Source: a virus
Length of the DNA stretch: 64,000 bases
IMG/VR virus record: IMGVR_UViG_3300045988_122046
Strand: one strand, 5' to 3'
The translations under genes and the position numbers were made by a program. Of the stretch, positions 1 through 21,418 are shown piece by piece. The notes beneath the pieces are model-generated. The model ran no database searches. It worked only from the letters and a program-made list of their open reading frames with translations, and was not told the origin of the DNA. Within the stretch, counting starts at the first letter, position 1; each line of letters starts with the position of its first letter.

Positions 1-57
1 AAAGAAGATGAAGCTAAGTTCTTAAAATTCTTCAACGAAAATCCAGAAGTTATGTAA
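1..57 (+). CDS. 3' end of an upstream gene (partial, ...KEDEAKFLKFFNENPEVM*)
   Basis: Open frame from window edge to TAA at 55-57; product unknown. Confidence 0.35.
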   Translation, partial: KEDEAKFLKFFNENPEVM

Positions 58-81
58 GACCTGCAAAGGTCTTTTGGATTC

Positions 82-153
82 GGAAGTGTCATACAACGGT
101 TAGTATGCGGTGCTGATAACGCCGTCACGAAAGTTCGATTCTTTCCACTTCCA
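82..153 (+). tRNA. tRNA-Ile (anticodon GAT)
   Basis: Hand-folded cloverleaf: acceptor ggaagtg/cacttcc, D-stem atac/gtat, anticodon stem cggtg/cgccg with loop cuGAUaa, T-arm gaaag-ttcgatt-ctttc; 72 nt. Confidence 0.7.
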
Positions 154-182
154 TCTTTATAAAAATCAAAAAATAAAATAAA

Positions 183-211
183 TTGATTTTTATAAAAATA
201 AATGATATAAT
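183..211 (+). promoter_or_regulatory. sigma-A-like promoter (TTGATT-N17-TATAAT), conserved phage promoter family
   Basis: -35 TTGATT 183-188, -10 TATAAT 206-211, AT-rich spacer typical of the family. Confidence 0.5.
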
Positions 212-544
212 AAATATATGAAGTAAATAATAATTGCAAGGTGCTAAGGAGGTTTATCTTCTGAGGGTTCTGTAGGTTACAGAGGTAAGGCGAGTGCAAA
301 TCCACCCAATTATTAAAATATAATAGACTCGGATCAGCAAATTTCTTTTAATACAGTTAAAAGGAAAACAAGAACGCCGGTAGTCCGGCTCCAGCCGATG
401 ACCAATAATTTGAGTTGAAGTAAATAGGGATTATTGATAGGATTACTATTAGAACTTTACGAGTCTTGTTAATTAAAAACCTCTCTTTTAAAAATTTAAG
501 AAATATCTTTTTAAGACACATACAGCAAATTTTGCTTATAGCAA

Positions 545-578
545 ATTATTAACACTGGTTCGAATCCAGTTTTATGCT
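545..578 (+). other. tRNA 3'-half fragment A (anticodon 3' stem attat, variable taac, T-arm actgg-ttcgaat-ccagt, acceptor 3' strand tttatgc, discriminator t)
   Basis: Canonical T-arm GTTCGAATC and acceptor strand; no 5' partner upstream; partner lies downstream (585-614). Confidence 0.45.
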
Positions 579-584
579 CAAGGT

Positions 585-614
585 GCGTAAATAGCCAAGC
601 GGTTAGGCAATAAT
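585..614 (+). other. tRNA 5'-half fragment C (acceptor gcgtaaa, U8 A9, D-arm gcca-agcggtt-aggc, anticodon 5' stem ataat)
   Basis: 7/7 complementarity (one G-U) to acceptor strand of fragment A and 5/5 to its anticodon stem strand, but located downstream of it (permuted order). Confidence 0.45.
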
Positions 615-635
615 TCAAAATGTGTCTTGAAATAA

Positions 636-689
636 TGGGGTATCGCCAAGCGGCAAGGCAAAAATTCTTGGTTCGAAAAGTTCAATTTT
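636..689 (+). other. tRNA 5'-half-like fragment D (acceptor uggggua, D-arm gcca-agcggca-aggc, stem aaaat ... atttt enclosing a 19-nt loop)
   Basis: D-arm nearly identical to fragment C; acceptor strand perfectly complementary (7/7) to fragment B at 1574-1580, 890 nt downstream. Confidence 0.4.
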
Positions 690-736
690 ATTATCTTATT
701 TTTGATATATAATATCAAGAGTAGGAGGAAAAAATA

Positions 737-1465
737 ATGGCAATTATTGACAATTATTCAAAAGAAGAACTAGAGCAGATAGTTAAACAATCTTATTCAA
801 TGAATGAAGTGATTGATAAATTAGGCTATGCAACACATAGTGGAAGTAATAATAATACCGTAAAAACAAGAATAGAAAAATTTCAAATAGGTATTTCTCA
901 TTTTAACTTTCAAAAAAGAACAGAAAGAAAAGAAGAAAATATTTTTATTGAAGAATCAACAGCTTCACAGGCAACTTTAAGAAAATGGTATTTAAAAGGA
1001 CAATATACTCCATATAAATGTTCTATTTGTGGTTTAGAGCCAATATGGCAAGGAAAAGAATTAACTTTAATTCTCGATCATATAAATGGGAAAAACCATG
1101 ATGACAGATTAGAAAATCTTCGTTGGGTTTGTCCTAATTGTAATCAACAATTAGATACCACTGGATTTAAACGAGGTAAAAATAAAGAAAATGTAAAAAA
1201 ATATTATTGTAAAGATTGTGGAATAGAAATAAGTAGAAGCTCAAAAGGACTTTGTCCAATATGTGCTAATAAGATAAAGCGAATTGCAGAAAGACCTACA
1301 AGAGATGAATTAAAACAATTAATAAGAAATTTACCTTTTGTTAAAATTGCTGAGCAATATGGAGTTTCTGATAAAGCTATTACTAAATGGTGTATATCAG
1401 AAAATTTACCTTCAAGAAAAAAAGATATTAAAAAATATTCAGATAAAGAATGGGAAGAAATTTAA
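737..1465 (+). CDS. HNH homing endonuclease
   Basis: HNH/zinc motif ILDHINGKNHDDRLENLRWVCPNCN and second CxxC pair; RBS taggagga 8 nt upstream; lies between tRNA half-fragments. Confidence 0.8.
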   Translation: MAIIDNYSKEELEQIVKQSYSMNEVIDKLGYATHSGSNNNTVKTRIEKFQIGISHFNFQKRTERKEENIFIEESTASQATLRKWYLKGQYTPYKCSICGLEPIWQGKELTLILDHINGKNHDDRLENLRWVCPNCNQQLDTTGFKRGKNKENVKKYYCKDCGIEISRSSKGLCPICANKIKRIAERPTRDELKQLIRNLPFVKIAEQYGVSDKAITKWCISENLPSRKKDIKKYSDKEWEEI

Positions 1466-1478
1466 TACTTCCCAACAT

Positions 1479-1553
1479 AGCGGATTAGCCTAGTTGGTAG
1501 GGCTGCGGACTTTGACTCCGTGTGTTGGACAGGTTCGAACCCTGTATCCGCTG
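1479..1553 (+). tRNA. tRNA-Gln (anticodon TTG)
   Basis: Acceptor agcggat/atccgct (7/7), D-arm gcct-agttggta-gggc, anticodon stem gcgga/tccgt with loop cuUUGac, T-arm acagg-ttcgaac-cctgt; variable region slightly long (7 nt). Confidence 0.65.
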
Positions 1554-1581
1554 TTCGCTGGTTCGAATCCAGCTACCCCAG
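1554..1581 (+). other. tRNA 3'-fragment B (T-arm gctgg-ttcgaat-ccagc plus acceptor 3' strand tacccca, discriminator g)
   Basis: Abuts tRNA-Gln; complementary to 5' acceptor strand of fragment D at 636-642. Confidence 0.4.
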
Positions 1582-2038
1582 CTTAATATTAAATCACAAA
1601 ATCTCATGTGTATGGTATCTGAAATGGTACTGATGGAGATAGCTACGAAATAGTTTAGGAATAAGTAGTATGGTTTAATATTTTAAAGTCTGAGTTGAGG
1701 AAGATGCTCAGCCATAGATGACCTATGAGAGTCTTCCAAGGTTGCTTTGTGCTATAGCCTTGTAAATTAATGGGAAGCATGAGATTCTGGTGAGGGGCTT
1801 ACACTTCACTGTCCTTGTAAGCTAAGGGCTTGACAGAGATGGTATCGAAAGTTAATTTCATTAAAAGCGTCATCTTTTAATGAAGTGAATAAACAGATAC
1901 ATACAGCAATTATACTGCTCATATAGGGCGCTTTCCTGCTAAGAAAGAATATTTCAGTATCTGGCTATTTTTTCCTGTCTTTTTCAGCACACTATTTCTA
2001 CAGGAGTTATTAATGAAAAGGCTGATAAATAAAGGAGA

Positions 2039-2230
2039 TTGAATATGTATATTTGTCCTACTTGTAAAAGAAAATTTGAAAAAGAAGAAAGTCTTTCAAA
2101 ACATTTCCTTTCCTGTTGGAAAGAACAACATCCATCTTATATTTCTAAATCTGCTCCAAGGAGTGAGAATATCGAAACAAGACAGGTAAATGAAGATATA
2201 ATGAATTTCTTTAATTCTTTTAAGGGGTAA
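2039..2230 (+). CDS. small C2H2-like zinc-finger protein
   Basis: CPTCKRKFEKEESLSKHFLSC motif; RBS aaaggagat. Confidence 0.45.
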   Translation: MNMYICPTCKRKFEKEESLSKHFLSCWKEQHPSYISKSAPRSENIETRQVNEDIMNFFNSFKG

Positions 2231-2235
2231 GAATA

Positions 2236-2586
2236 ATGGCAGAGGTTTTAGTAAAAACTCATCTCATTGTAACAGATGTGCATGAAGAATATAATATTAA
2301 TTGGTGCGGCAAGATTATTAATACAAAGCCAAAAATTAAAAATGGTAAACCTATATTTGCGGTTATTGGTAGTCGAGGACGCATTGAATTAAATACAACT
2401 GATATGCAAAGAGTTGAGAAATGTGCTAAATTATTAACTGCTCCAAAAGGTAGACAAGCTATTACAAGTGATACAGCTCACATTTATATTATAGAAGAAA
2501 ATGATAAAGAAACTTTAATGGGTGTTTTAACTCATAATCATGTTAAGAGTTATGCCCCAATGTTTGATAAAGTTGATTTTGTTTAA
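2236..2586 (+). CDS. hypothetical protein
   Basis: ORF with RBS, coding-like composition. Confidence 0.45.
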   Translation: MAEVLVKTHLIVTDVHEEYNINWCGKIINTKPKIKNGKPIFAVIGSRGRIELNTTDMQRVEKCAKLLTAPKGRQAITSDTAHIYIIEENDKETLMGVLTHNHVKSYAPMFDKVDFV

Positions 2587-2647
2587 AATTTGGGGAGTTA
2601 TACTGTAGGGGTAGCAGGCCAGTCTGGTTTTAATAGGAGATTTTATA

Positions 2648-3070
2648 GTGAATGAAATTAATAGAAAACAAATTGGAAGAATTGGATTAAGTATGGCAAT
2701 AAATTATTTTACTTGTCAAGGATATACAGTTTCTCTTCCATTAAATGACACTCAGTGGTATGATTTAATAATTGAAAAAGACGGTATTTTAAAAACTGTA
2801 CAATGTAAAGCTACTCAAACTGAAAGTGGAGAAATTAGTTTGAGAAATACAGGAGGAACAAAAGGAGCTGTTTATGATAATATTATAAATCATTCTGAGC
2901 TTGATTTTTTATTTTGTGTAAATAAAAATTTAGACATGTGGTGTATTCCAGTAAAAGATATTCTTAAAGCTGGTAATCGTAATAGAATAGTTTTACGAAA
3001 TACTCCTACAATAAATAATCAAGGATTTCAAACTTATAAATACCAAGTTCAAATCTTGGATAAGGCATAA
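2648..3070 (+). CDS. YraN/UPF0102-like restriction-endonuclease-fold (PD-(D/E)xK) protein, GTG start
   Basis: Pattern GxxGLxxAxxYFxxQGYxV...YDLIIEKDGxLKTVQCKAT resembles YraN/Hjc family; RBS aggaga 8 nt upstream of GTG; followed by a tRNA 3' fragment. Confidence 0.45.
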   Translation: MNEINRKQIGRIGLSMAINYFTCQGYTVSLPLNDTQWYDLIIEKDGILKTVQCKATQTESGEISLRNTGGTKGAVYDNIINHSELDFLFCVNKNLDMWCIPVKDILKAGNRNRIVLRNTPTINNQGFQTYKYQVQILDKA

Positions 3071-3090
3071 AACTGGTGGCTTCGGTCTCG

Positions 3091-3115
3091 GGTGGTTCGA
3101 CTCCATCACTCCCCA
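3091..3115 (+). other. orphan tRNA 3' fragment E (T-arm ggtgg-ttcgact-ccatc plus acceptor strand actcccc, a)
   Basis: No complementary 5' acceptor strand (ggggagt) within 100 nt upstream. Confidence 0.35.
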
Positions 3116-3577
3116 TCAGGGTGCAACCTAACAGTTCCCTTTAATAACTGGCTTCGGCAAGCAGGGACTAACTGCTGCATAAGAGGTATGCAGGCTCTTA
3201 AAAAATAATAGGTATTTTATTTATGTGTAGTGAATATGGCACGAATTATAAGGTATCCTTAACACAGTTTTTTAAACAATCCTATTTAAGTTGACCATAT
3301 TGAATAAAGACTTTGTTAATGGGAAGATAGTCAATAAAAACTAAAGTAGTGAACCAGGCCCTTGATGGATTTTATAGGTGGGTTTAGTGCAAGGAGCATG
3401 AACAATGAACGCTTGCAGAGTAAGGGGTCGCATGAAAAGGTTTTTATTGACTATTTTTTTTATAAAAACCCAGCTCATATGAAAAGCATAAACTGCTCGC
3501 GCCGGACCCGAACGAGAGAACCGCAAACCCAAATCAAAAAAGCATTTTAGAATTTTTTAGACAAAAAGATTGCTATA

Positions 3578-3606
3578 TTGATTTTTTAATAAAAATATTA
3601 TATAAT
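3578..3606 (+). promoter_or_regulatory. conserved phage promoter (TTGATT-N17-TATAAT)
   Basis: -35 3578-3583, -10 3601-3606. Confidence 0.55.
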
Positions 3607-3646
3607 ATATTTATATTAAAGATAAGAGATAAAGGAGATTTAAAAA

Positions 3647-3997
3647 ATGATGAAAACTACTTTTGGTAAAGAAAAATATCGGGTATTTGTAGACCAGAAT
3701 CAGCGGAAGGTAATTGCAGTAAGCACTTATGCAGGTAAAAATGTAAAAGGCTATGCAAAGGCAGACCCAAGAGACACCTTTGATGTAGAAAAAGGTACTG
3801 AGCTTGCTATTGCCCGTTGTAATGCAAAGATTGCAGAAAAAAGAGCTAAAAGAGCGGCAAGTAAAGTTTCTGAGGCGCTTCAGGAGCTTGCAGAAGCTCA
3901 GAAGCATCTTGTAAAAATGCAGAAATATCTTGTAGATGCAAATGAGGCTTGCGATGTAGCAAAAGCCAATGTTGCGGCTATTGAAAAAACACTTTAA
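3647..3997 (+). CDS. hypothetical coiled-coil protein
   Basis: RBS aaaggagat, promoter upstream; antisense ORF 3611-4009 is low-complexity artefact. Confidence 0.55.
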   Translation: MMKTTFGKEKYRVFVDQNQRKVIAVSTYAGKNVKGYAKADPRDTFDVEKGTELAIARCNAKIAEKRAKRAASKVSEALQELAEAQKHLVKMQKYLVDANEACDVAKANVAAIEKTL

Positions 3998-6473: not shown

Positions 6474-6572
6474 AAGACACTTTCTCAGCAATTAAAGAAA
6501 ATGGATAATAAAATTGTGTTGTGAATGATTTTTAGAGGGTTCAAATCCCTTAAATGAAAAATAAAGTGTCTT
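6474..6572 (+). ncRNA. tRNA-like / pseudo-tRNA element
   Basis: Terminal 7-bp helix aagacac/gtgtctt encloses a canonical T-arm gaggg-ttcaaat-ccctt, but D and anticodon arms do not fold; cotranscribed with tRNA-Leu. Confidence 0.3.
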
Positions 6573-7296: not shown

Positions 7297-7593
7297 CTAA
7301 AGAGCCATAAACTGCAAAACAATTTATATCTTCAAATGGATATTATTGGGTAAAATCACATACATATTAAAATATGATGATTTAATAATGCAATGCTTCT
7401 CAGTAGACTAAATAGGCTGGGCTCTTGATATACAAAGCAGTATTAGTGAAAAGAAGCATCTATTTAATTTTTAATGGTTTTATAATTTACATTAAGGCAT
7501 AAACAGCAATCGTTGATTAAATTCAAGCAAATATTTTATTATATGACAATAAAACATATTTTTGAAAAAGGATGATTATTATGCCTTGAAAAA

Positions 7594-16195: not shown

Positions 16196-17017
16196 ATGGC
16201 AGACCTTAACACAATAATTAAAACTGCGAGTGGTATTCAAGAGCATTATCTTGAATCTAAACAATACTTTGCTAAGAATAATATTGTAGGTATTTTTCTT
16301 CAGGGTAGTCAGAATTATGGTCTTGAGACTGAAGATTCTGATATTGATACAAAACTTATTACCACTCCGACATTAAATGATTTTATTTATAATCGTAAGC
16401 CTATGTCTACAACTCATTTTAGGGCTAATGGGGAACATATTGACTTTAAAGATATTAGGCTTATGTTTGATACTTTCCGCAAACAGAATCTAAATTTTAT
16501 TGAAATTCTTTTTACTAATTATAAAATTATCAACCCAATGTATGAAAAAGAATGGAATAAGTTAATTGCGGAAAATGAAGTTATTGCACATTATAACCCT
16601 TATTTCGCAGTAAAAGCTATGTCTGGTATTGCTCTTGGAAAAAGATATGCTCTTACCAAAGAGACTGAAGCTCATAAAGAAGCCTTTGAAAAGTTTAACT
16701 ATGACCCAAAACAGCTTTATCAGCTTGTAAGGATTGACGAATATCTTGATAAGTATATTGCTGGAGCACCATATAAAGAATGTTTATGTCCAGCTAATCC
16801 GCAATATTTAAAAGACATTAAAACTGGTCTTTATTCAAAAGAAGAAGCTATTAAAGTTGCAGATGAGTATATGGCTCATATTGATAAAATTTGTGCCCCA
16901 TATACGAAAGATTCTGAATTTAACTATACTAATGAAGAAGCTGAAAATCTTCTTCAAGAAGTTCAAGCAGAAATTATGAAGAAAAGTCTTGCTTTTGAGC
17001 TGGAGGAAAAGAAATGA
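16196..17017 (+). CDS. Pol-beta-superfamily nucleotidyltransferase
   Basis: GS-X9-DxD motif QGSQNYGLETEDSDIDT. Confidence 0.55.
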   Translation: MADLNTIIKTASGIQEHYLESKQYFAKNNIVGIFLQGSQNYGLETEDSDIDTKLITTPTLNDFIYNRKPMSTTHFRANGEHIDFKDIRLMFDTFRKQNLNFIEILFTNYKIINPMYEKEWNKLIAENEVIAHYNPYFAVKAMSGIALGKRYALTKETEAHKEAFEKFNYDPKQLYQLVRIDEYLDKYIAGAPYKECLCPANPQYLKDIKTGLYSKEEAIKVADEYMAHIDKICAPYTKDSEFNYTNEEAENLLQEVQAEIMKKSLAFELEEKK

Positions 17018-17802
17018 TTAAACAGTTTTTTGTAACAGGAGATACTCATGGTTGTATGGATCGTTTTGAATGGCTTGAGATACAAAATCCAAAAGAAACT
17101 GGTATTATTATCTTAGGAGATGCAGGTGTCAATTTTTATAAGAGTGCGGCAAGGCGGCATGATATTAAGATGCAACTTGAGCAATATGGATGTACATTTT
17201 ATTTGGTAAGGGGGAATCATGAAGCTCGTCCAGAAGATGTTAAAGGTATTGAAGAGGTTTGGGATGATGATGTTGCGAATTATGTTTTCATTGAACCCGG
17301 TTATCCTCATATCCATTATCTCATGGATGGTTCTAATTATGATTTTCTGGGTCATAATACGCTTGTAATAGGTGGAGCTTATTCTGTAGATAAGTGGTAT
17401 AGACTTGAAAATCATTATACTTGGTATCCAAATGAGCAGTTAACAGAGGCGGAAATGCAGGCTATTGAAGCAATGTATGCGGGACAGAGTTTTGATTTTA
17501 TCTTTACTCATACTTGTCCATTAAGTTGGGAGCCAACTGATTTATTTTTATCTATGATTGATCAGTCCACTGTAGATGATTCTATGGAAGTTTGGTTTGA
17601 TTCTTTTAAAGATAAGATTAATTGGAACGTTTGGCTTTTTGGTCACTTCCACGCAGATAGAATGGAGCGCCCGCATGTTGAACAATATTTTAAAGCAATC
17701 GAAGATTTAGAAGAGGTATGGAAAAGATGGAACGACCCAAATTATTTACTTCCTGCTTATTTCAGAAAATCTCCTAATTTTGATAAAGGAAAAACTGAAT
17801 AA
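17014..17802 (+). CDS. calcineurin-like metallophosphoesterase
   Basis: GDTHG, GDAG, GNHE motifs. Confidence 0.65.
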   Translation: MIKQFFVTGDTHGCMDRFEWLEIQNPKETGIIILGDAGVNFYKSAARRHDIKMQLEQYGCTFYLVRGNHEARPEDVKGIEEVWDDDVANYVFIEPGYPHIHYLMDGSNYDFLGHNTLVIGGAYSVDKWYRLENHYTWYPNEQLTEAEMQAIEAMYAGQSFDFIFTHTCPLSWEPTDLFLSMIDQSTVDDSMEVWFDSFKDKINWNVWLFGHFHADRMERPHVEQYFKAIEDLEEVWKRWNDPNYLLPAYFRKSPNFDKGKTE

Positions 17803-17816
17803 GTTTTTCCTTTATT
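17788..17816 (+). terminator. terminator hairpin fused to promoter
   Basis: ggaaaaact-gaataa-agtttttcc + tttatt. Confidence 0.5.
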
Positions 17817-17843
17817 GATTTTTTATTAAAATTATAATATAAT
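17815..17843 (+). promoter_or_regulatory. conserved phage promoter
   Basis: TTGATT 17815-17820, TATAAT 17838-17843, leader TATAGAAAGTTAAGGAAAGG. Confidence 0.6.
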
Positions 17844-17877
17844 ATATATAGAAAGTTAAGGAAAGGATAAAAAAGAA

Positions 17878-18060
17878 ATGATTAAAATTCTTAAACCTGG
17901 CGAAAAATATGGCTATCGGTTAAAATGCTCAAAATGTCATTGTGTATTTATTGCGTCACAAGATGAATGTCGAAATTCTATTTTTTCTTATTTTAGATGT
18001 CCAGATTGTGGAAGCATCGTTGAAAAGAAACTTTATACTAAAAAAGTAAGACTTGACTAA
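17878..18060 (+). CDS. small zinc-ribbon protein
   Basis: CSKCHC ... CPDCG. Confidence 0.45.
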   Translation: MIKILKPGEKYGYRLKCSKCHCVFIASQDECRNSIFSYFRCPDCGSIVEKKLYTKKVRLD

Positions 18061-18078
18061 AGAGAGGATTGATATATT

Positions 18079-18897
18079 ATGAAATATTTTATTGACTTTG
18101 AAGCAATGCAGTTTTCCAATTACATTATTTCTGTTGGATGTGTTCGAGAAGATGGAAAAGAATTTTACTCTCTTGTACACACACCAGAGAATACAAAGAA
18201 GAATGTTTCTAAGTTTATCACTGATTTAACAGGTATTACTACAGAAATGGTTGAAGCAGCTCCTTCTCCAGAAGAAGTATTCAATAAGTTCTTTGATTTT
18301 TGTTTTGGAGATTGCGGCGATGATATTCCTGAGTTTTATTGTTATGGGAATTGTGATACAGATTTTATCAAAGCAACCTTTCGCAAAACAAATAGCTTTA
18401 AGGCAAAAGCAATCCTTGGCTATATGAATACAGATATGAAGGATTTTGCTCCTGCTGTCAAGGTGCATTTTGGTTTAATTAAATTGATTAATCTCGCTAA
18501 AGTCTGCGAATATTTTAGAGGAGAAGAAATTGTTCAGACTCATAATTCTCTTGATGACGCAAAGATGTTAAAAGAGGTTTATGAAGGTTGTAAAAATGAA
18601 AAGGCTTCTGACGTAGATGCAAATGTTTTTATGGAATATAAAGAAATTACAACTGATCAGATTGAATATGAAGATACTCGTTTTGATGTTTTCTGTTGTC
18701 CTACTAAAAACTTTGAAGAAGAGAGAACTAAGAAGTTTGAGAATCTTAAAGAAGCAGTTGAATATGTTAAAACATATGATAAGAGTATGAGAAATAATCC
18801 AACTGTAAATGTAAACAATGTAGCCAAAAGGATTAAAAAATCCTACAATACAAAGAAACAATACAACTTCTACTATTGGAAATTTGAGGTGAAATAA
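18079..18897 (+). CDS. DEDDh 3'-5' exonuclease (DnaQ/epsilon-like)
   Basis: Exo I FIDFEAMQF, Exo II YCYGNCDTDF, Exo III HNSLDDAKMLKEVY. Confidence 0.7.
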   Translation: MKYFIDFEAMQFSNYIISVGCVREDGKEFYSLVHTPENTKKNVSKFITDLTGITTEMVEAAPSPEEVFNKFFDFCFGDCGDDIPEFYCYGNCDTDFIKATFRKTNSFKAKAILGYMNTDMKDFAPAVKVHFGLIKLINLAKVCEYFRGEEIVQTHNSLDDAKMLKEVYEGCKNEKASDVDANVFMEYKEITTDQIEYEDTRFDVFCCPTKNFEEERTKKFENLKEAVEYVKTYDKSMRNNPTVNVNNVAKRIKKSYNTKKQYNFYYWKFEVK

Positions 18898-19226
18898 TGA
18901 TTAAACTTTGGATTGATGATATGCGGCCCGCGCCAGATGAATCTTATATTTGGATTAAGAGTGTTTGGGATGCAGAAATGTGTCTTACTACTCTTGTCAG
19001 ACCAGAAGGAGACATTCTTGAAGTTAATGAAATTAATTTAGATCATGATGCTGGTGAATATTATGAAAAAGGCGGAGATTATATTAAAATTCTTGATTGG
19101 CTTGAATGTTGCCAAAGATTGCGGGGTTGGCACATTTATGCAACTTTTAAATTTCATAGTATGAATCCTGTTGGAGTTCAGAATATGAAAAGAGTTTGTA
19201 GAGAAGCTGGTTGGAGAGTTGAATAA
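18897..19226 (+). CDS. hypothetical protein
   Basis: ATG overlaps upstream stop (ATGA). Confidence 0.45.
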   Translation: MIKLWIDDMRPAPDESYIWIKSVWDAEMCLTTLVRPEGDILEVNEINLDHDAGEYYEKGGDYIKILDWLECCQRLRGWHIYATFKFHSMNPVGVQNMKRVCREAGWRVE

Positions 19227-19612
19227 TGAACTATTGGAAAAAACAAAGATTAAAAGAAATTATGAAGCACATTGTAGTTGTGGTGCTTATTGTCGCAGCT
19301 TGTATTGGAATTATAGCTGGGATAAAGAAGTATTATGACCAATTTTATTTAAAAACTGAAGTAAGAACAGTTGAAGTTATAAATAAAGAGGATGATGTGC
19401 ATCATTCTGTTGTAATGAGTGGGAAGGTTCTTATTCCTGTTACAACTCATTCATATTATTTATATGGCGTAAATAATGAAAAAGTAGACGTTTCTTCTTC
19501 TATCTTTAATACTATTAAAGAAGGAGATGAAATACAAGTAGAATGTACCTATATTTACTATAAAAAAGATGATTCTTTGCATAAAATAGAGTATAAATAT
19601 TTAGAGGAATAA
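19226..19612 (+). CDS. membrane protein (one TM helix)
   Basis: HIVVVVLIVAACIGIIAGI. Confidence 0.45.
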   Translation: MNYWKKQRLKEIMKHIVVVVLIVAACIGIIAGIKKYYDQFYLKTEVRTVEVINKEDDVHHSVVMSGKVLIPVTTHSYYLYGVNNEKVDVSSSIFNTIKEGDEIQVECTYIYYKKDDSLHKIEYKYLEE

Positions 19613-19615
19613 AAT

Positions 19616-20191
19616 ATGAAAATTAAAAACTTTTTTGGACATTTAAAAACAGTATGTAAACATAAATATTGGGTAGGAAAATACTGCTTTAAAATTGGTC
19701 TTTATAAGCAGGGAATTACACATGATTTATCTAAATTTTCTCCTGTTGAATTTTGGGAAGGTGTCAAATATTGGCAGGGGACTCGTTCTCCAATAGATGC
19801 TTGTAAAGAGGAAAATGGGATGTCCTTTGCTTGGCAGCATCATAAAGGTCGGAATCGACATCACTACGAGTACTGGTTCGATAACCTTGATAAAGGTGGC
19901 ACCGCACTACCAATGCCAGACAAGTATCTTTTGGAATTACTTTGTGATTATTTAGGTGCGGGACGTGCTTATATGGGAAAAAATTTTACATATGAAGGAG
20001 AATATAAGTGGTGGCAGAATAAAATTAAAAATCCTATCGCCATGCATCCTGCTACTAAAGCTTTTATAGATAAAGTATTATCTCGTTTAGCGTGGAGAGA
20101 GCGACATAATATTGGATATAAGGCACTTTTAAATAAGAAAAATCTCATTAAGATTTATCACGAATGTTTGAAAGAAACAGACCTTAATTGA
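19616..20191 (+). CDS. hypothetical His-rich protein
   Basis: ORF with RBS ggaataaaat. Confidence 0.45.
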   Translation: MKIKNFFGHLKTVCKHKYWVGKYCFKIGLYKQGITHDLSKFSPVEFWEGVKYWQGTRSPIDACKEENGMSFAWQHHKGRNRHHYEYWFDNLDKGGTALPMPDKYLLELLCDYLGAGRAYMGKNFTYEGEYKWWQNKIKNPIAMHPATKAFIDKVLSRLAWRERHNIGYKALLNKKNLIKIYHECLKETDLN

Positions 20192-20216
20192 TTTACTTTT
20201 AAAATTTTTATATAAT
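20188..20216 (+). promoter_or_regulatory. conserved phage promoter
   Basis: TTGATT 20188-20193, TATAAT 20211-20216. Confidence 0.5.
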
Positions 20217-20239
20217 GTATTTACAATAAATAAAGGAGA

Positions 20240-21418
20240 TTGATAGGTATGCTGAATGAAAAGAAAGAAAGAGAGCTTGCTTATGTTGTCAAAGTTGACG
20301 AGATTCGTCCTATTGAAGGAGCTGATAGAGTAGAAGTAGCTATCGTAAATGGTTGGCATATTATGGTTCGTAAAGACCAGTTTAAGCCAGGTGATTTAGC
20401 TGTTTACTTTGAGATTGATTCTAAAGTTCCAGCAGAAGAGCCATTTATGTTTCTTGAGCCGAAGCATTTTAAAATTAAGACTCAGAAATATTTTAAAGGT
20501 ACTGTAATTTCTCAGGGTCTGCTGATGGGCTTTGAGGACTTCGGTTGGGAGAAAGACGCTTATAAACTTGGCGACTTTTTAACCCAGAAGTTAAAGGTAA
20601 CTTACGCAGTTGAAGAAGATAATGCTCGTAAAGCATCTTCTGTAGATAAGTACAAAAAGATGGCTCAGAGACATGGAAAATTATTCTCTCATCAGCCGTT
20701 TAGATGGTTAATGCGTAGAACTTGGGGTAAGAAAATCTTATTCCTGTTCTTTGGTAAAACCTCTGATAAGAAGACCGGATGGCCGGCATGGGTAGCAAAA
20801 ACTGACGAAGAGAGGGTTGAAAATATGCCATGGATATTTGATAATAAGTCTCCTTTCGTAGCTACTGAAAAAATTGATGGAACTTCCACTACTTTTACTA
20901 TGAAAAGAGGTAAGTTTGGAAAGAATGATTTCTATGTATGTTCTCGTAATGTAGTATTTGATAAGCCTGATAAGAATTGTTTCTATGATACAAATGTTTA
21001 TATCGAAATGGCTGAGAAGTATGATATTGAAAAAATTCTTGAGTCTATTCTTACCGATGATCCTACTCTAGATTGGGTAACTTTGCAAGGAGAGACTTAT
21101 GGAGCTGGTATTCAGAAGAGAGATTATGGACTTAAAGAGCATCGTTTTGCTGGTTTTAATTTCATTACTTCTAAAGAAGGTAGATGGGATTCTGTTCGTG
21201 CAGCTAAATTCATGACTCAGTATAATATTCCTTGGGTTCCTATCCTTGATGAAAACTATATTCTTCCTGGTACAATTGAGGAGCTGAGAGCATTTTCTCA
21301 TAATGAGGGTTCTCGTATCGATGGAGTTATTAAGGAAGGTATTGTATTTAGAAGTCAAGATGGTTCTATGTCTTTTAAGTGTGTAGATCCTGAGTTTTTA
21401 ATGAAGTATCATGCATAA
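20240..21418 (+). CDS. ATP-dependent RNA ligase, DraRnl/Rnl5-like (N-terminal OB-like domain plus C-terminal nucleotidyltransferase)
   Basis: Motif I VATEKIDGTS (KxDG), motif IV-like EGIVFRSQDG, lysine-containing motif V; ~200-aa N-terminal extension as in Rnl5 family. Confidence 0.55.
   Translation: MIGMLNEKKERELAYVVKVDEIRPIEGADRVEVAIVNGWHIMVRKDQFKPGDLAVYFEIDSKVPAEEPFMFLEPKHFKIKTQKYFKGTVISQGLLMGFEDFGWEKDAYKLGDFLTQKLKVTYAVEEDNARKASSVDKYKKMAQRHGKLFSHQPFRWLMRRTWGKKILFLFFGKTSDKKTGWPAWVAKTDEERVENMPWIFDNKSPFVATEKIDGTSTTFTMKRGKFGKNDFYVCSRNVVFDKPDKNCFYDTNVYIEMAEKYDIEKILESILTDDPTLDWVTLQGETYGAGIQKRDYGLKEHRFAGFNFITSKEGRWDSVRAAKFMTQYNIPWVPILDENYILPGTIEELRAFSHNEGSRIDGVIKEGIVFRSQDGSMSFKCVDPEFLMKYHA

What the first reader, a model, noticed from the sequence alone, without database searches (positions are those of the whole stretch)
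545..1581. Matching tRNA half-fragments in permuted / split order around an HNH endonuclease gene
Two pairs of fragments each form the two halves of one tRNA, but in the wrong genomic arrangement. Fragment A (545-578) carries a perfect T-arm and acceptor 3' strand tttatgc, and sits 6 nt upstream of fragment C (585-614), which carries the matching 5' strand gcgtaaa, a normal D-arm and the matching anticodon-stem strand (ataat vs attat). The 3' half therefore precedes the 5' half. Fragment D (636-689, acceptor 5' strand uggggua) is exactly complementary (7/7) to the acceptor 3' strand tacccca of fragment B (1574-1580). D and B are separated by the HNH endonuclease gene and a complete tRNA-Gln. 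Two independent stem matches per pair make chance unlikely. The options I can see are: (i) circularly permuted or split tRNA genes whose halves are joined in trans, which would be notable given the RNA ligase, Pnk and phosphatase genes encoded nearby; (ii) tRNA genes pseudogenised by homing-endonuclease-driven insertion or rearrangement; (iii) an unrecognised intron.
Basis: seen in the sequence. Interest (0 to 1): 0.7.

Follow-up and report, generated by a model that had tools for sequence, protein, structure and literature searches.

The report
Phage Y-RNA tRNA mimic; endonuclease-split tRNA-Gln
The two "split tRNAs" are different things: one is a conserved phage RNA shaped like a tRNA with its ends moved (a Y-RNA-type tRNA mimic that probably partners a Ro60-like phage protein), and the other is the wreck of a tRNA-Gln gene cut in two by a mobile endonuclease cassette that carries its own tRNA-Gln gene.

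Summary
All four fragments exist as described, but the two pairs have unrelated explanations.

**Pair A-C (545-614).** This is the core of one 124-nt RNA (509-632). A perfect 13-bp terminal stem encloses a T arm, a 7-bp acceptor-like hairpin closed by a 7-nt loop, a D arm and a 5-bp anticodon-stem analogue. That is the topology of bacterial YrlA Y RNAs, the tRNA mimics that bind Ro60.
- The structure covaries strongly in 14 diverse relatives.
- A model built from them finds 72 copies in 80 related phage loci. All lie on the strand of a gene (window 8498-10021) whose predicted fold matches only Ro60/Rsr.
- The family shares a frame, AAGRC…NCAGCAA…GYCUU. This differs from the published YrlA motif, and Rfam's YrlA model does not detect the window copy.
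- I file it as a new variant of a known kind.

**Pair D-B (636-659 and 1554-1581).** These are positions 1-24 and 45-72 of a tRNA-Gln(UUG) that is intact in three close relatives.
- In the window an 894-nt cassette (HNH endonuclease plus its own tRNA-Gln) replaces the whole anticodon arm.
- Joining D and B could not give a tRNA.

There is no split or trans-joined tRNA and no intron in 545-1581.

The parts
183..211 (+). Sigma-70-type promoter (TTGATT-17-TATAAT with TG). It is one of a repeated phage promoter family. It would start a + strand transcript near 218 that runs into the Y-like RNAs.
   Evidence: The same 45-58-nt promoter repeat occurs at 3578, 4555, 5235, 7116 and 8255.
325..466 (+). 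Frame-only Y-like RNA: AGACUCG…AUCAGCAA…CGAGUCU closing stem, with a non-tRNA interior.
   Evidence: motif plus 7-bp closing stem; fold z = -3.3.
509..632 (+).
- P1 terminal stem: 509-521 / 620-632 (conserved core AAGACACAU 513-521 / AUGUGUCUU 620-628).
- Conserved motif ACAGCAA: 522-528.
- Hairpin: 531-536 / 540-545.
- Anticodon-stem analogue: 545-549 / 610-614.
- Variable loop: 550-553, with C553 opposite G599 (a Levitt-type pair).
- T arm: 554-570.
- Acceptor-like stem: 571-577 / 585-591, closed by loop 578-584.
- U592 A593.
- D arm: 594-608.
   Evidence: (85.2 bits).
636..659 (+). Fragment D: 5' remnant (positions 1-24) of the resident tRNA-Gln(UUG).
   Evidence: One substitution compared with the intact L004 gene.
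660..1553 (+). Inserted homing-endonuclease cassette (894 nt). It holds a leader/promoter region, the HNH ORF (737-1465) and a complete substitute tRNA-Gln(UUG) (1478-1554).
   Evidence: ARAGORN; tRNA, 55.4 bits; phrog_10822 HNH, 2.7e-43; absent from L001, L003, L004.
1554..1581 (+). Fragment B: 3' remnant (positions 45-72: variable loop, T arm, acceptor 3' strand, discriminator G) of the resident tRNA-Gln.
6475..6571 (+). Frame-only Y-like RNA (AAGACAC…UCAGCAA…GUGUCUU) that holds a lone T-arm-like hairpin.
   Evidence: (24.4 bits).
7495..7586 (+). Frame-only Y-like RNA (AGGCAUA…ACAGCAA…UAUGCCU).
   Evidence: (25.4 bits).
8303..8440 (+). Degenerate tRNA-like Y RNA directly upstream of the Ro-like gene (AGGUGCU…ACAGCUA…AGUAUCU). 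It has D-arm-like and acceptor-like hairpins.
   Evidence: 24.9 bits; its near-identical copy, L045 5724-5865.
8498..10021 (+). Ro60-like protein (DUF2828 + DUF7788/vWA; 507 aa), the presumed protein partner of the Y-like RNAs.
   Evidence: Pfam; phrog_850, 'RNA-binding protein', 2.6e-129; all 8 Foldseek PDB hits with E<=1e-3 are Ro60/Rsr; 36%-identical mycobacteriophage homologues annotated 'Ro-like RNA binding protein'.

Best explanation
Two independent features sit side by side in a phage tRNA cluster.

(1) Window 509-632 encodes a Y-RNA-type tRNA mimic with YrlA-like topology.
- It is transcribed on the + strand, probably from the promoter at 183-211 as part of a longer precursor.
- It folds into a tRNA-shaped body: a T arm, a D arm, a 7-bp acceptor-like stem closed by a loop, and a 5-bp anticodon-stem analogue.
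- Its 'anticodon end' opens into a conserved single-stranded ACAGCAA motif and a long terminal stem, AAGACACAU/AUGUGUCUU.
- Inferred: the terminal stem plus ACAGCAA is the docking site for the phage's Ro60-like protein (8498-10021). The tRNA-shaped module presents a tRNA surface to tRNA-recognising factors.
- Inferred: the RNA thereby tethers or gates the Ro-like protein within the phage's tRNA-repair and quality-control gene set. It could also serve as a decoy for enzymes that attack tRNA.
- Inferred: because the acceptor-like stem is 7 bp, RNase P may cut between U584 and G585, as shown for M. smegmatis YrlA.

(2) Fragments D and B are the two ends of a resident tRNA-Gln(UUG) gene.
- Its middle (positions 25-44) was replaced by a mobile cassette holding an HNH homing endonuclease and a sequence-divergent tRNA-Gln(UUG).
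- Inferred: the endonuclease cuts intact tRNA-Gln alleles of co-infecting relatives. Repair then copies the cassette in, the target site is destroyed, and the carried tRNA-Gln restores the lost function.
For: RNA (1), structure:
- The fold has a 13-bp closing stem, z = -3.5.
- On a structure-naive MAFFT alignment of 14 diverse homologues, 93.6% of cells are paired against 70.9% in shuffles.
- 18 of 25 pairs show compensatory change. The covariation score is 0.67, against 0.22 shuffled and about 0.1 with slid partners.
- RNAalifold independently predicts the same four helices.
- The anticodon-stem analogue also covaries, with exact tRNA geometry: 1 nt after the D arm and 5 nt before the T arm.
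- tRNA tertiary-contact bases are present: U8/A14, G15-C48, G18G19, T-loop UUCGAAU.

RNA (1), distribution:
- Model R1 finds 72 matches in 1.5 Mb of related loci, all on the strand of the Ro-like gene.
- Five frame elements in the window all lie upstream of that gene on the + strand. Shuffles give 0.86.
- In a separate sample of viral contigs found through the 16-mer alone (it shares some contigs with the 80 loci), 51 of 51 motif copies in loci with a Ro-like hit share its strand.

RNA (1), link to Ro and YrlA:
- The partner gene's model matches only Ro60/Rsr at E<=1e-3.
- Rfam's curated YrlA model gives sub-threshold hits exactly on R1 hits: L031 37.9 bits, L011 29 bits, L008 28.6 bits.
- Both models hit the same RNA next to the 'Ro-like RNA binding protein' of mycobacteriophage AvadaKedavra.
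- The same frame and tRNA-like core occur in Bacillus phage Tsamsa and E. coli phage heid, beside their DUF2828 genes.
- The YrlA topology comes from PMC4201824 and 10.1101/312249.

tRNA-Gln remnant (2):
- An intact tRNA-Gln occupies the identical position in L001, L003 and L004.
- L002 has a different, shorter HNH gene and a different tRNA-Gln at nearly the same site, again with both remnants.
- L010 and L021 have the homologous HNH gene next to other tRNA-Gln versions.
Against: - No binding, expression or processing data exist. The Ro-like protein / RNA pairing is inferred only from conserved synteny, strand and analogy.
- The window copy lies 7.9 kb upstream of the Ro-like gene. Chen et al. 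2014 reported about 4 kb or less for YrlA.
- The published YrlA 5' motif GNCGAAN0-1G is absent.
- Rfam YrlA does not hit the window copy even at E<=10.
- The Ro-like fold match has modest TM scores (0.32-0.39), from a model with pLDDT 73.
- Covariation shuffles ignore phylogeny, although the slid-partner control keeps it.
- For the cassette, endonuclease activity and target site are untested. The remnants could also come from illegitimate recombination unrelated to homing.
Confidence: 0.8

Rival explanations
1. A-C is a true circularly permuted tRNA gene of the Cyanidioschyzon type. The transcript would be circularised or its ends ligated, for example by the phage RNA ligase. The acceptor loop would then be opened by RNase P and 3' processing, giving a decoding tRNA.
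For: - The 3'-half-then-5'-half order, a 7-bp acceptor stem and all tRNA core features are present.
- 21 of 51 family members carry NCCA right after the acceptor 3' strand.
- An RNA ligase, a Thg1-like enzyme and a nucleotidyltransferase are encoded nearby.
Against: - No conserved 7-nt anticodon loop can be rebuilt. The flanks of the anticodon-stem analogue are an A-rich linker on one side and the ACAGCAA motif plus a hairpin on the other. There is no conserved U33/R37.
- Instead, the terminal stem and ACAGCAA are the most conserved parts. They are shared with 'frame-only' RNAs that have no tRNA body.
- No bulge-helix-bulge motif was recognised by eye; neither a formal motif scan nor a search of the window for a splicing endonuclease was done.
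- The window copy has no CCA.
Confidence: 0.04
2. D and B are halves of a split tRNA-Gln. They would be transcribed separately, or excised, and joined or paired in trans. Alternatively, 660-1553 is a large intron.
For: The acceptor strands are complementary 7/7, and RNA-repair genes lie nearby.
Against: - Positions 25-44 of the tRNA (the entire anticodon arm) are missing from D+B.
- The intervening DNA holds a promoter-led HNH gene and a complete tRNA.
- No group I or other intron family matches.
- Intact alleles exist in L001, L003 and L004.
- A substitute tRNA-Gln(UUG) is supplied in cis.
Confidence: 0.01
3. A-C is a functionless junction left by decay of two adjacent tRNA genes: the T arm of one and the D arm of the next. 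This is the raw material from which YrlA RNAs are thought to have arisen.
For: - It lies in a tRNA cluster full of rearrangements.
- Dimeric tRNAs are a known source of false YrlA hits (PMC4201824).
Against: - The acceptor-like hairpin, the anticodon-stem analogue and the terminal stem all covary across distant phages.
- The element is kept with compensatory changes even among near-identical relatives: A554G gives G-U, and G587A turns G-U into A-U.
- There is strict strand bias, and the frame is conserved from gut phages to Bacillus, E. coli and Mycobacterium phages.
Confidence: 0.05
4. The RNA works independently of the Ro-like protein. It could be a decoy substrate for host anticodon nucleases or tRNA-modifying enzymes, or a processing signal (RNase P site) for the polycistronic tRNA transcript.
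For: - It has a tRNA-like core with a 7-bp acceptor stem, and NCCA loops are frequent.
- Some paralogues carry complete anticodon arms, for example L031 3777-3903 and L015 6341-6477.
- It is embedded among tRNA genes.
Against: - The most conserved parts are the frame stem and ACAGCAA, not the tRNA body.
- These co-occur with the DUF2828 gene, on the same strand, in very different phages.
- Frame-only members lack any tRNA-like part.
Confidence: 0.1

Closest known systems
[quoted passage not shown] 2014, PMC4201824; structure 6CU1, preprint 10.1101/312249
   Same: - Same order of modules: terminal stem, anticodon-stem analogue, variable region, T stem-loop, closed acceptor-like stem-loop, UA, D stem-loop, back to the terminal stem.
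- tRNA tertiary-contact bases are conserved.
- It is encoded on the same strand as a Ro60-like gene.
- There are several Y-like paralogues per genome, some lacking the full tRNA body (as with YrlB).
- Like M. smegmatis YrlA, it has a 7-bp acceptor stem.
   Different: - The partner protein is the DUF2828/vWA type, not an annotated TROVE protein.
- The conserved 5' motif is ACAGCAA after an AAGRC stem, not GNCGAAN0-1G.
- The Rfam model does not detect the window copy, and reaches only 28-40 bits (gathering score 69) on relatives.
- Many relatives encode NCCA in the acceptor loop, and some carry a full anticodon arm.
- Copies are scattered through a phage tRNA array up to 8 kb from the protein gene.
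Circularly permuted tRNA genes of Cyanidioschyzon merolae
   Same: The 3' half (anticodon-stem 3' strand, T arm, acceptor 3' strand) lies upstream of the 5' half, joined by a short spacer.
   Different: - Those genes yield real decoding tRNAs, through a bulge-helix-bulge junction, circularisation and RNase P/Z cuts.
- Here no anticodon loop can be rebuilt, and the junction region is a conserved protein-binding-like frame.
Free-standing homing endonuclease genes in phage tRNA clusters (for example T4 SegB and the T5 HNH nickases; named from my own knowledge)
   Same: - An HNH ORF sits among phage tRNA genes.
- It is present or absent among close relatives at one site, and the target gene is disrupted.
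   Different: The cassette carries its own complete, sequence-divergent copy of the tRNA it destroys. It also leaves both ends of the old gene as scars.
tmRNA tRNA-like domain and viral 3' tRNA-like structures
   Same: They are tRNA mimics with a T arm and an acceptor stem.
   Different: - Those have a free CCA end and are aminoacylated.
- ARAGORN finds no tmRNA here, and the acceptor end of this RNA is a closed loop.

Membership tests
YrlA / bacterial Y RNA (Rfam RF02553) | T stem-loop and D stem-loop with tRNA-like loops, separated by a closed acceptor-like stem-loop. | tested here: met
   T arm 554-570; acceptor-like stem 571-577/585-591 with a 7-nt loop; D arm 594-608. Covariation is shown.
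YrlA / bacterial Y RNA (Rfam RF02553) | Conserved UA between the acceptor-like stem and the D arm, and a pyrimidine at the last variable-loop position (10.1101/312249). | tested here: met
   U592 A593; C553 before the T stem, opposite G599. TA, TC, TG or TT occupies this position in all members.
YrlA / bacterial Y RNA (Rfam RF02553) | An anticodon-stem analogue that continues into a long stem formed by the 5' and 3' ends (the Ro-binding module). | tested here: met
   545-549/610-614 and 509-521/620-632. Both covary in the family.
YrlA / bacterial Y RNA (Rfam RF02553) | GNCGAAN0-1G motif near the 5' end (PMC4201824). | tested here: not met
   There is no such motif in 480-545. The family instead conserves (A/G/U)CAGCAA directly after the AAGRCNNNN strand.
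YrlA / bacterial Y RNA (Rfam RF02553) | A score at or above the Rfam gathering threshold (69 bits). | tested here: not met
   No YrlA hit in window 1-2300 even at E<=10. Relatives score 28.6-37.9 bits, and mycobacteriophage AvadaKedavra scores 39.8 bits.
YrlA / bacterial Y RNA (Rfam RF02553) | Encoded near (about 4 kb or less) and on the same strand as a Ro60 orthologue. | tested here: inconclusive
   The strand matches, but the distance is 7.9 kb. Other frame RNAs lie between, and one (8303-8440) abuts the gene. The gene is Ro60-like by fold, not by Pfam TROVE.
YrlA / bacterial Y RNA (Rfam RF02553) | Bound by Ro60/Rsr; modified by TruB and DusA. | not testable with these tools
   This needs immunoprecipitation and modification mapping.
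Circularly permuted tRNA gene | Joining the transcript ends restores a 7-nt anticodon loop and a decoding tRNA. | tested here: not met
   The flanks of the anticodon-stem analogue are an A-rich linker on one side and ACAGCAA plus a hairpin on the other. No conserved U33/anticodon pattern is seen.
Split tRNA gene / tRNA intron (pair D-B) | The two parts together contain every tRNA position, and the intervening RNA is removable. | tested here: not met
   Positions 25-44 are absent. No intron family matches. Intact alleles exist in relatives.
Free-standing HNH homing endonuclease cassette | An HNH nuclease ORF. | tested here: met
   phrog_10822 'HNH endonuclease', 2.7e-43. The Pfam HNH and HNH_3 matches are weak and below their curated cut-offs.
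Free-standing HNH homing endonuclease cassette | Presence/absence polymorphism at one site among close relatives, with flanking homology. | tested here: met
   Absent in L001, L003 and L004, with flanks 94-97% identical. Variant cassettes occur in L002, L010 and L021.
Free-standing HNH homing endonuclease cassette | Site-specific cleavage of the cassette-free allele. | not testable with these tools
   This needs an in vitro cleavage assay.
Ro60 / TROVE protein (ORF 8498-10021) | A helical-repeat ring domain followed by a vWA domain, with a fold matching Ro60. | tested here: met
   - AlphaFold model pLDDT 73.
- Foldseek against PDB: the only 8 hits with E<=1e-3 are Ro60/Rsr (2nvo at 2.2e-6), over the full length, with TM 0.32-0.39.
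- Pfam: DUF2828 + DUF7788, plus VWA_2 below its curated cut-off.
- There is no direct sequence hit to Ro60 in PDB.

The most novel reading that the evidence does not exclude
The AAGRC…NCAGCAA…GYCUU RNAs form an undescribed clade of Y RNAs dedicated to the DUF2828-type Ro-like proteins. These proteins occur in hundreds of cultured phages, including Felixounavirus coliphages, Bacillus Tsamsa-like phages and cluster-L-type mycobacteriophages.

In this reading, their interchangeable tRNA-shaped cargo modules are cut by RNase P into two-piece molecules with tRNA-like ends. The cargoes include versions with an encoded CCA, versions with full Tyr/Ile/Leu/Arg-like anticodon arms, and an anticodon-stem/hairpin pair that looks bistable. 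The cut molecules would act as decoys, sensors or repair scaffolds against host enzymes that cleave tRNA.
Probability: 0.3. Interest if true: 0.75.

Novelty: new variant of a known kind. Interest (0 to 1): 0.5.

Why it matters
**The permuted "tRNA".** It is not a curiosity of one genome. It is one member of a large, strongly covarying RNA family that Rfam's YrlA model detects only at sub-threshold scores, or, for the window copy, not at all.
- The family travels with a Ro60-like protein found in 711 deposited phage genomes.
- The function of bacterial Y RNA tRNA mimics is still unknown.
- A phage version sits next to tRNA-repair enzymes and is present in E. coli K-12 phages. That makes the question directly testable by genetics: delete the RNA or the protein, then challenge with hosts that carry tRNA-cleaving defences.

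**The split tRNA-Gln.** It is a clean natural example of a homing endonuclease cassette that carries a replacement for the gene it destroys. This helps explain why phage tRNA clusters accumulate half-gene scars that can mislead annotation.

Tried and rejected
- **Group I or other intron in 160-2030 and 2500-3650.** No Rfam match at gathering score or at E<=10.
- **Permuted or two-piece tmRNA.** ARAGORN finds none.
- **Close nucleotide relatives in GenBank phages.** None; only a 143-nt HNH match.
- **Direct sequence similarity of the 507-aa protein to Ro60 in PDB or NCBIfam.** None. Only the fold comparison shows it.
- **Literature on DUF2828 with Y RNA, or YrlA in phages after 2014.** Nothing in the searchable library. 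The supplement of PMC4201824 and the 2020 review are not held.
- **My first assumption that the ATAAT/ATTAT match was AT-rich coincidence.** This was wrong. The helix covaries in the family with exact tRNA geometry.
- **Listeria phage P100.** R1 gives only weak, dimeric-tRNA-like hits, so I make no claim for that phage.
- **The count of the exact 16-mer in viral contigs.** It is not informative by itself, since some matches are expected by chance in so large a collection. I used only its strand and stem context.
Full report
**Observation**

- Fragment A has a T arm (ACTGG/TTCGAAT/CCAGT, 554-570) followed by TTTATGC (571-577).
- After a 7-nt loop comes fragment C: GCGTAAA (585-591), which pairs 7/7 with TTTATGC. 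It continues with UA, a D arm (594-608) and ATAAT (610-614), which is complementary to ATTAT (545-549).
- Fragment D starts with TGGGGTA (636-642). Fragment B is a T arm plus TACCCCA (1558-1580).
- ARAGORN and Rfam call only the ordinary tRNAs: Ile 82-153, Gln 1478-1554, and four more at 6.6-8.2 kb.

**Pair D-B: a tRNA-Gln gene split by a homing endonuclease cassette**

I fetched 80 related loci from viral contigs through the neighbouring 507-aa protein. They come from phages of about 140-200 kb.
- In the closest relatives L001, L003 and L004, window 183-659 and 1554-2400 are contiguous apart from about 20 nt. An intact 72-nt tRNA-Gln(UUG) sits there.
- Base-by-base comparison shows D = tRNA positions 1-24 (636-659) and B = positions 45-72 (1554-1581).
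- Positions 25-44, the whole anticodon arm, are replaced by 894 nt (660-1553).
- The insert holds an HNH endonuclease ORF (737-1465; phrog_10822 at 2.7e-43; weak Pfam HNH). It also holds a complete but sequence-divergent tRNA-Gln(UUG) (1478-1554).
- L002 has a shorter HNH gene plus yet another tRNA-Gln at almost the same site, again flanked by both remnants.
- The distant L010 and L021 carry the homologous HNH gene, each followed by its own tRNA-Gln version.

This is the pattern expected of a mobile endonuclease cassette that targets the tRNA-Gln gene and brings a replacement copy. D plus B cannot make a tRNA, so the split-tRNA and intron readings fail for this pair.

**Pair A-C: a conserved tRNA mimic**

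A pattern scan for [quoted passage not shown] found 68 instances in the window and loci. Every one lies on the strand of the 507-aa gene.

Folding them shows a common plan:
- a terminal stem with core AAGRCNNNN/NNNNGYCUU;
- an unpaired (A/G/U)CAGCAA directly after its 5' strand;
- a hairpin;
- a T arm;
- a 7-bp acceptor-like hairpin;
- UA;
- a D arm;
- an A-rich linker back to the stem.

Tests of that structure:
- On a MAFFT alignment of 14 diverse members (A3), 93.6% of cells are paired against 70.9% in shuffles.
- 18 of 25 pairs have compensatory changes. The covariation score is 0.67, against 0.22 shuffled and about 0.1 with slid partners.
- RNAalifold finds the same four helices unaided.
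The equivalent helix covaries. In most members it sits exactly 1 nt after the D arm and 5 nt before the T arm, as a tRNA anticodon stem would.
- A covariance model (R1) finds 72 matches at E<=0.01 in 1.5 Mb, all on the + strand.

In the window, R1 scores 513-628 at 85 bits. It gives weak matches to three RNAs that share only the frame (6474-6572, 7494-7587, 8302-8441). A motif-plus-stem scan finds five frame elements: 325-466, 514-627, 6475-6571, 7495-7586 and 8303-8440. All are on the + strand and upstream of the 507-aa gene, against 0.86 expected from shuffles.

**What it resembles**

The order T, closed acceptor-like stem, D, with an anticodon-stem analogue leading to a stem formed by the RNA's ends, is the published architecture of YrlA.
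- YrlA is the bacterial Y RNA that binds the Ro60 orthologue Rsr and mimics tRNA (PMC4201824).
[quoted passage not shown] It names the UA linker and the last variable-loop pyrimidine as conserved (10.1101/312249). Both are present here (U592 A593; C553).

The 507-aa protein (8498-10021):
- It is DUF2828 + DUF7788, with a sub-threshold VWA_2 match, by Pfam, and phrog_850 "RNA-binding protein".
- It has no sequence hit to Ro60 in PDB.
- Its AlphaFold model (pLDDT 73) matches only Ro60/Rsr structures at E<=1e-3 over its full length (TM 0.32-0.39).
- Homologues occur in 711 deposited phage genomes. The mycobacteriophage ones (36% identity) are annotated "Ro-like RNA binding protein".

Convergence of the two RNA models:
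- Beside that gene in phage AvadaKedavra, Rfam's YrlA model (RF02553) scores 39.8 bits and my R1 scores 38.3 bits on the same RNA.
- Rfam YrlA also gives sub-threshold hits exactly on R1 hits in L031, L011 and L008.
- R1 finds the same frame and tRNA-like core in an unannotated gap of the tRNA cluster of Bacillus phage Tsamsa. A frame-only copy lies just upstream of that phage's DUF2828 gene.
- R1 also finds it in the tRNA cluster of E. coli K-12 phage heid, a Felixounavirus.
- In a separate sample of viral contigs found through the 16-mer AAGACACATACAGCAA alone (it shares some contigs with the 80 loci), 83 of 129 copies have a closing stem. All 51 copies in loci with a Ro-like hit share that gene's strand.

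**Membership**

The window RNA meets the structural definition of YrlA. It fails two tests:
- The published 5' motif GNCGAAN0-1G is replaced by ACAGCAA.
- The Rfam model does not detect it even at E<=10.

I therefore file it as a new variant of a known kind: a Y-RNA clade tied to DUF2828-type Ro-like proteins. I do not file it as a member of RF02553.

**Mechanism** (steps marked shown or inferred)

- Shown: the fold, its conservation and covariation, its strand and synteny link to the Ro-like gene, and the tRNA-like core bases.
- Inferred by analogy with Rsr-Y RNA complexes: the AAGRC stem plus ACAGCAA docks the Ro-like protein. The tRNA-shaped module recruits or distracts tRNA-recognising factors.
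- Context for that inference: the Ro-like gene heads a cluster with a Thg1-like enzyme, a Pol-beta-type nucleotidyltransferase, a phosphoesterase, an RNase T-type exonuclease and an RNA ligase.
- Inferred: the 7-bp acceptor-like stem makes RNase P cleavage at U584|G585 plausible, as shown for M. smegmatis YrlA.
- Supporting observation: 21 of 51 unique family members, with 12 of 34 distinct acceptor stems, encode NCCA immediately after the acceptor 3' strand. The window copy does not.

**Novelty and score**

The class is known, so the permuted order is not in itself surprising to a specialist. Three things appear new relative to Rfam and the searchable literature:
- the size and diversity of this phage clade;
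- its distinct frame motif;
- cargo modules that include CCA-ended and anticodon-arm-bearing versions, and its presence in tractable coliphages.

The tRNA-Gln wreck is ordinary phage biology with a neat twist, since the cassette carries a replacement tRNA. Overall interest is 0.5.

Noticed in passing
window 2590-3116: tRNA-Tyr(GUA) is interrupted precisely between G34 and U35 by 441 nt (2627-3067).
- The insert is almost entirely an ORF (2648-3070, 140 aa).
- The ORF is of the I-Ssp6803I type of PD-(D/E)XK homing endonuclease (Pfam PDDEXK_5 at 5e-15; best PDB hit 2OST). Its stop codon overlaps the anticodon.
- No tRNA base is lost.
- L002, L004 and L005 have the uninterrupted gene. L003 has the insert.
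- L076 has a 69%-identical ORF at nearly the same anticodon position of another tRNA.
- L063 has the ORF free-standing just upstream of an intact tRNA-Tyr.
- There is no Rfam intron match, and the junctions do not fit group I or II rules.
- No other tRNA-Tyr lies in the 64 kb.
- Whether the insert is removed from the RNA is unknown.
   Followed up: partly
L005 3399-3525: The otherwise intact tRNA-Gln(UUG) of this close relative carries a 57-nt insertion inside the anticodon loop (…GGACTT[57 nt]TGACTCC…). ARAGORN no longer calls the gene. The insert is too short for a group I intron, and its nature is unknown.
   Followed up: no
window 325-466, 6475-6571, 7495-7586, 8303-8440 (also weaker 1894-1963): Four further RNAs share the AGRY…CAGCWA…closing-stem frame but have other interiors. 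One has a lone T-arm-like hairpin, and one has degenerate D and acceptor hairpins. They are likely YrlB-like paralogues.
   Followed up: partly
L008 1806-1916, L080 1956-2069, L017 3326-3441 and most class-1 family members: The 3' strand of the anticodon-stem analogue can pair with either of two sequences. One is the strand after the D arm, which gives the tRNA-like fold. The other is a near-identical copy upstream, which gives a local hairpin. Both alternatives covary, suggesting a two-state switch. In the window copy the hairpin and the stem use different bases and are compatible.
   Followed up: partly
L031 3777-3903, L008 1257-1386, L044 8563-8689; L015 6341-6477, L011 9808-9944: - Some paralogues are complete permuted cloverleaves that include an anticodon arm, with loops such as CUGAUAA, CUUAAAA, CUUCUAA and CUGUAAA.
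- The class just upstream of the Ro-like gene looks like a permuted tRNA-Tyr with an ACCA end.
   Followed up: no
L085 9355-9480 (Escherichia phage heid) and L084 4236-4358, 5845-5905 (Bacillus phage Tsamsa): Unannotated gaps in the tRNA clusters of cultured phages hold homologues of the same RNA, next to their DUF2828 genes. These offer tractable experimental systems.
   Followed up: partly
window 1582-2035: This is a stretch of about 450 nt with no ORF of 40 aa or more on the + strand.
- It is conserved at 94-97% in close relatives, and part of it (1560-1682) at 85% in L014.
- There is no Rfam match, and the fold z-score is only -1.8.
- Its function is unknown.
   Followed up: partly
L076 3395-3425: The endonuclease ORF of this phage has an in-frame TAG where the window has CAA (Gln). 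This hints at TAG-to-Gln recoding in that phage, or at a decayed ORF.
   Followed up: no
window 11706-21418: An RNA-repair-type gene set lies downstream of the Ro-like gene:
- macro-domain family TIGR02452 (11706-12515);
- Thg1-like (14094-14996);
- Pol-beta nucleotidyltransferase, weak match below the Pfam cut-off (16196-17017);
- metallophosphoesterase (17014-17802);
- RNase T-type exonuclease (18079-18897);
- RNA ligase (20240-21418).

The 486-aa ORF 10034-11494 has no match in Pfam, NCBIfam or PHROGs.
   Followed up: partly
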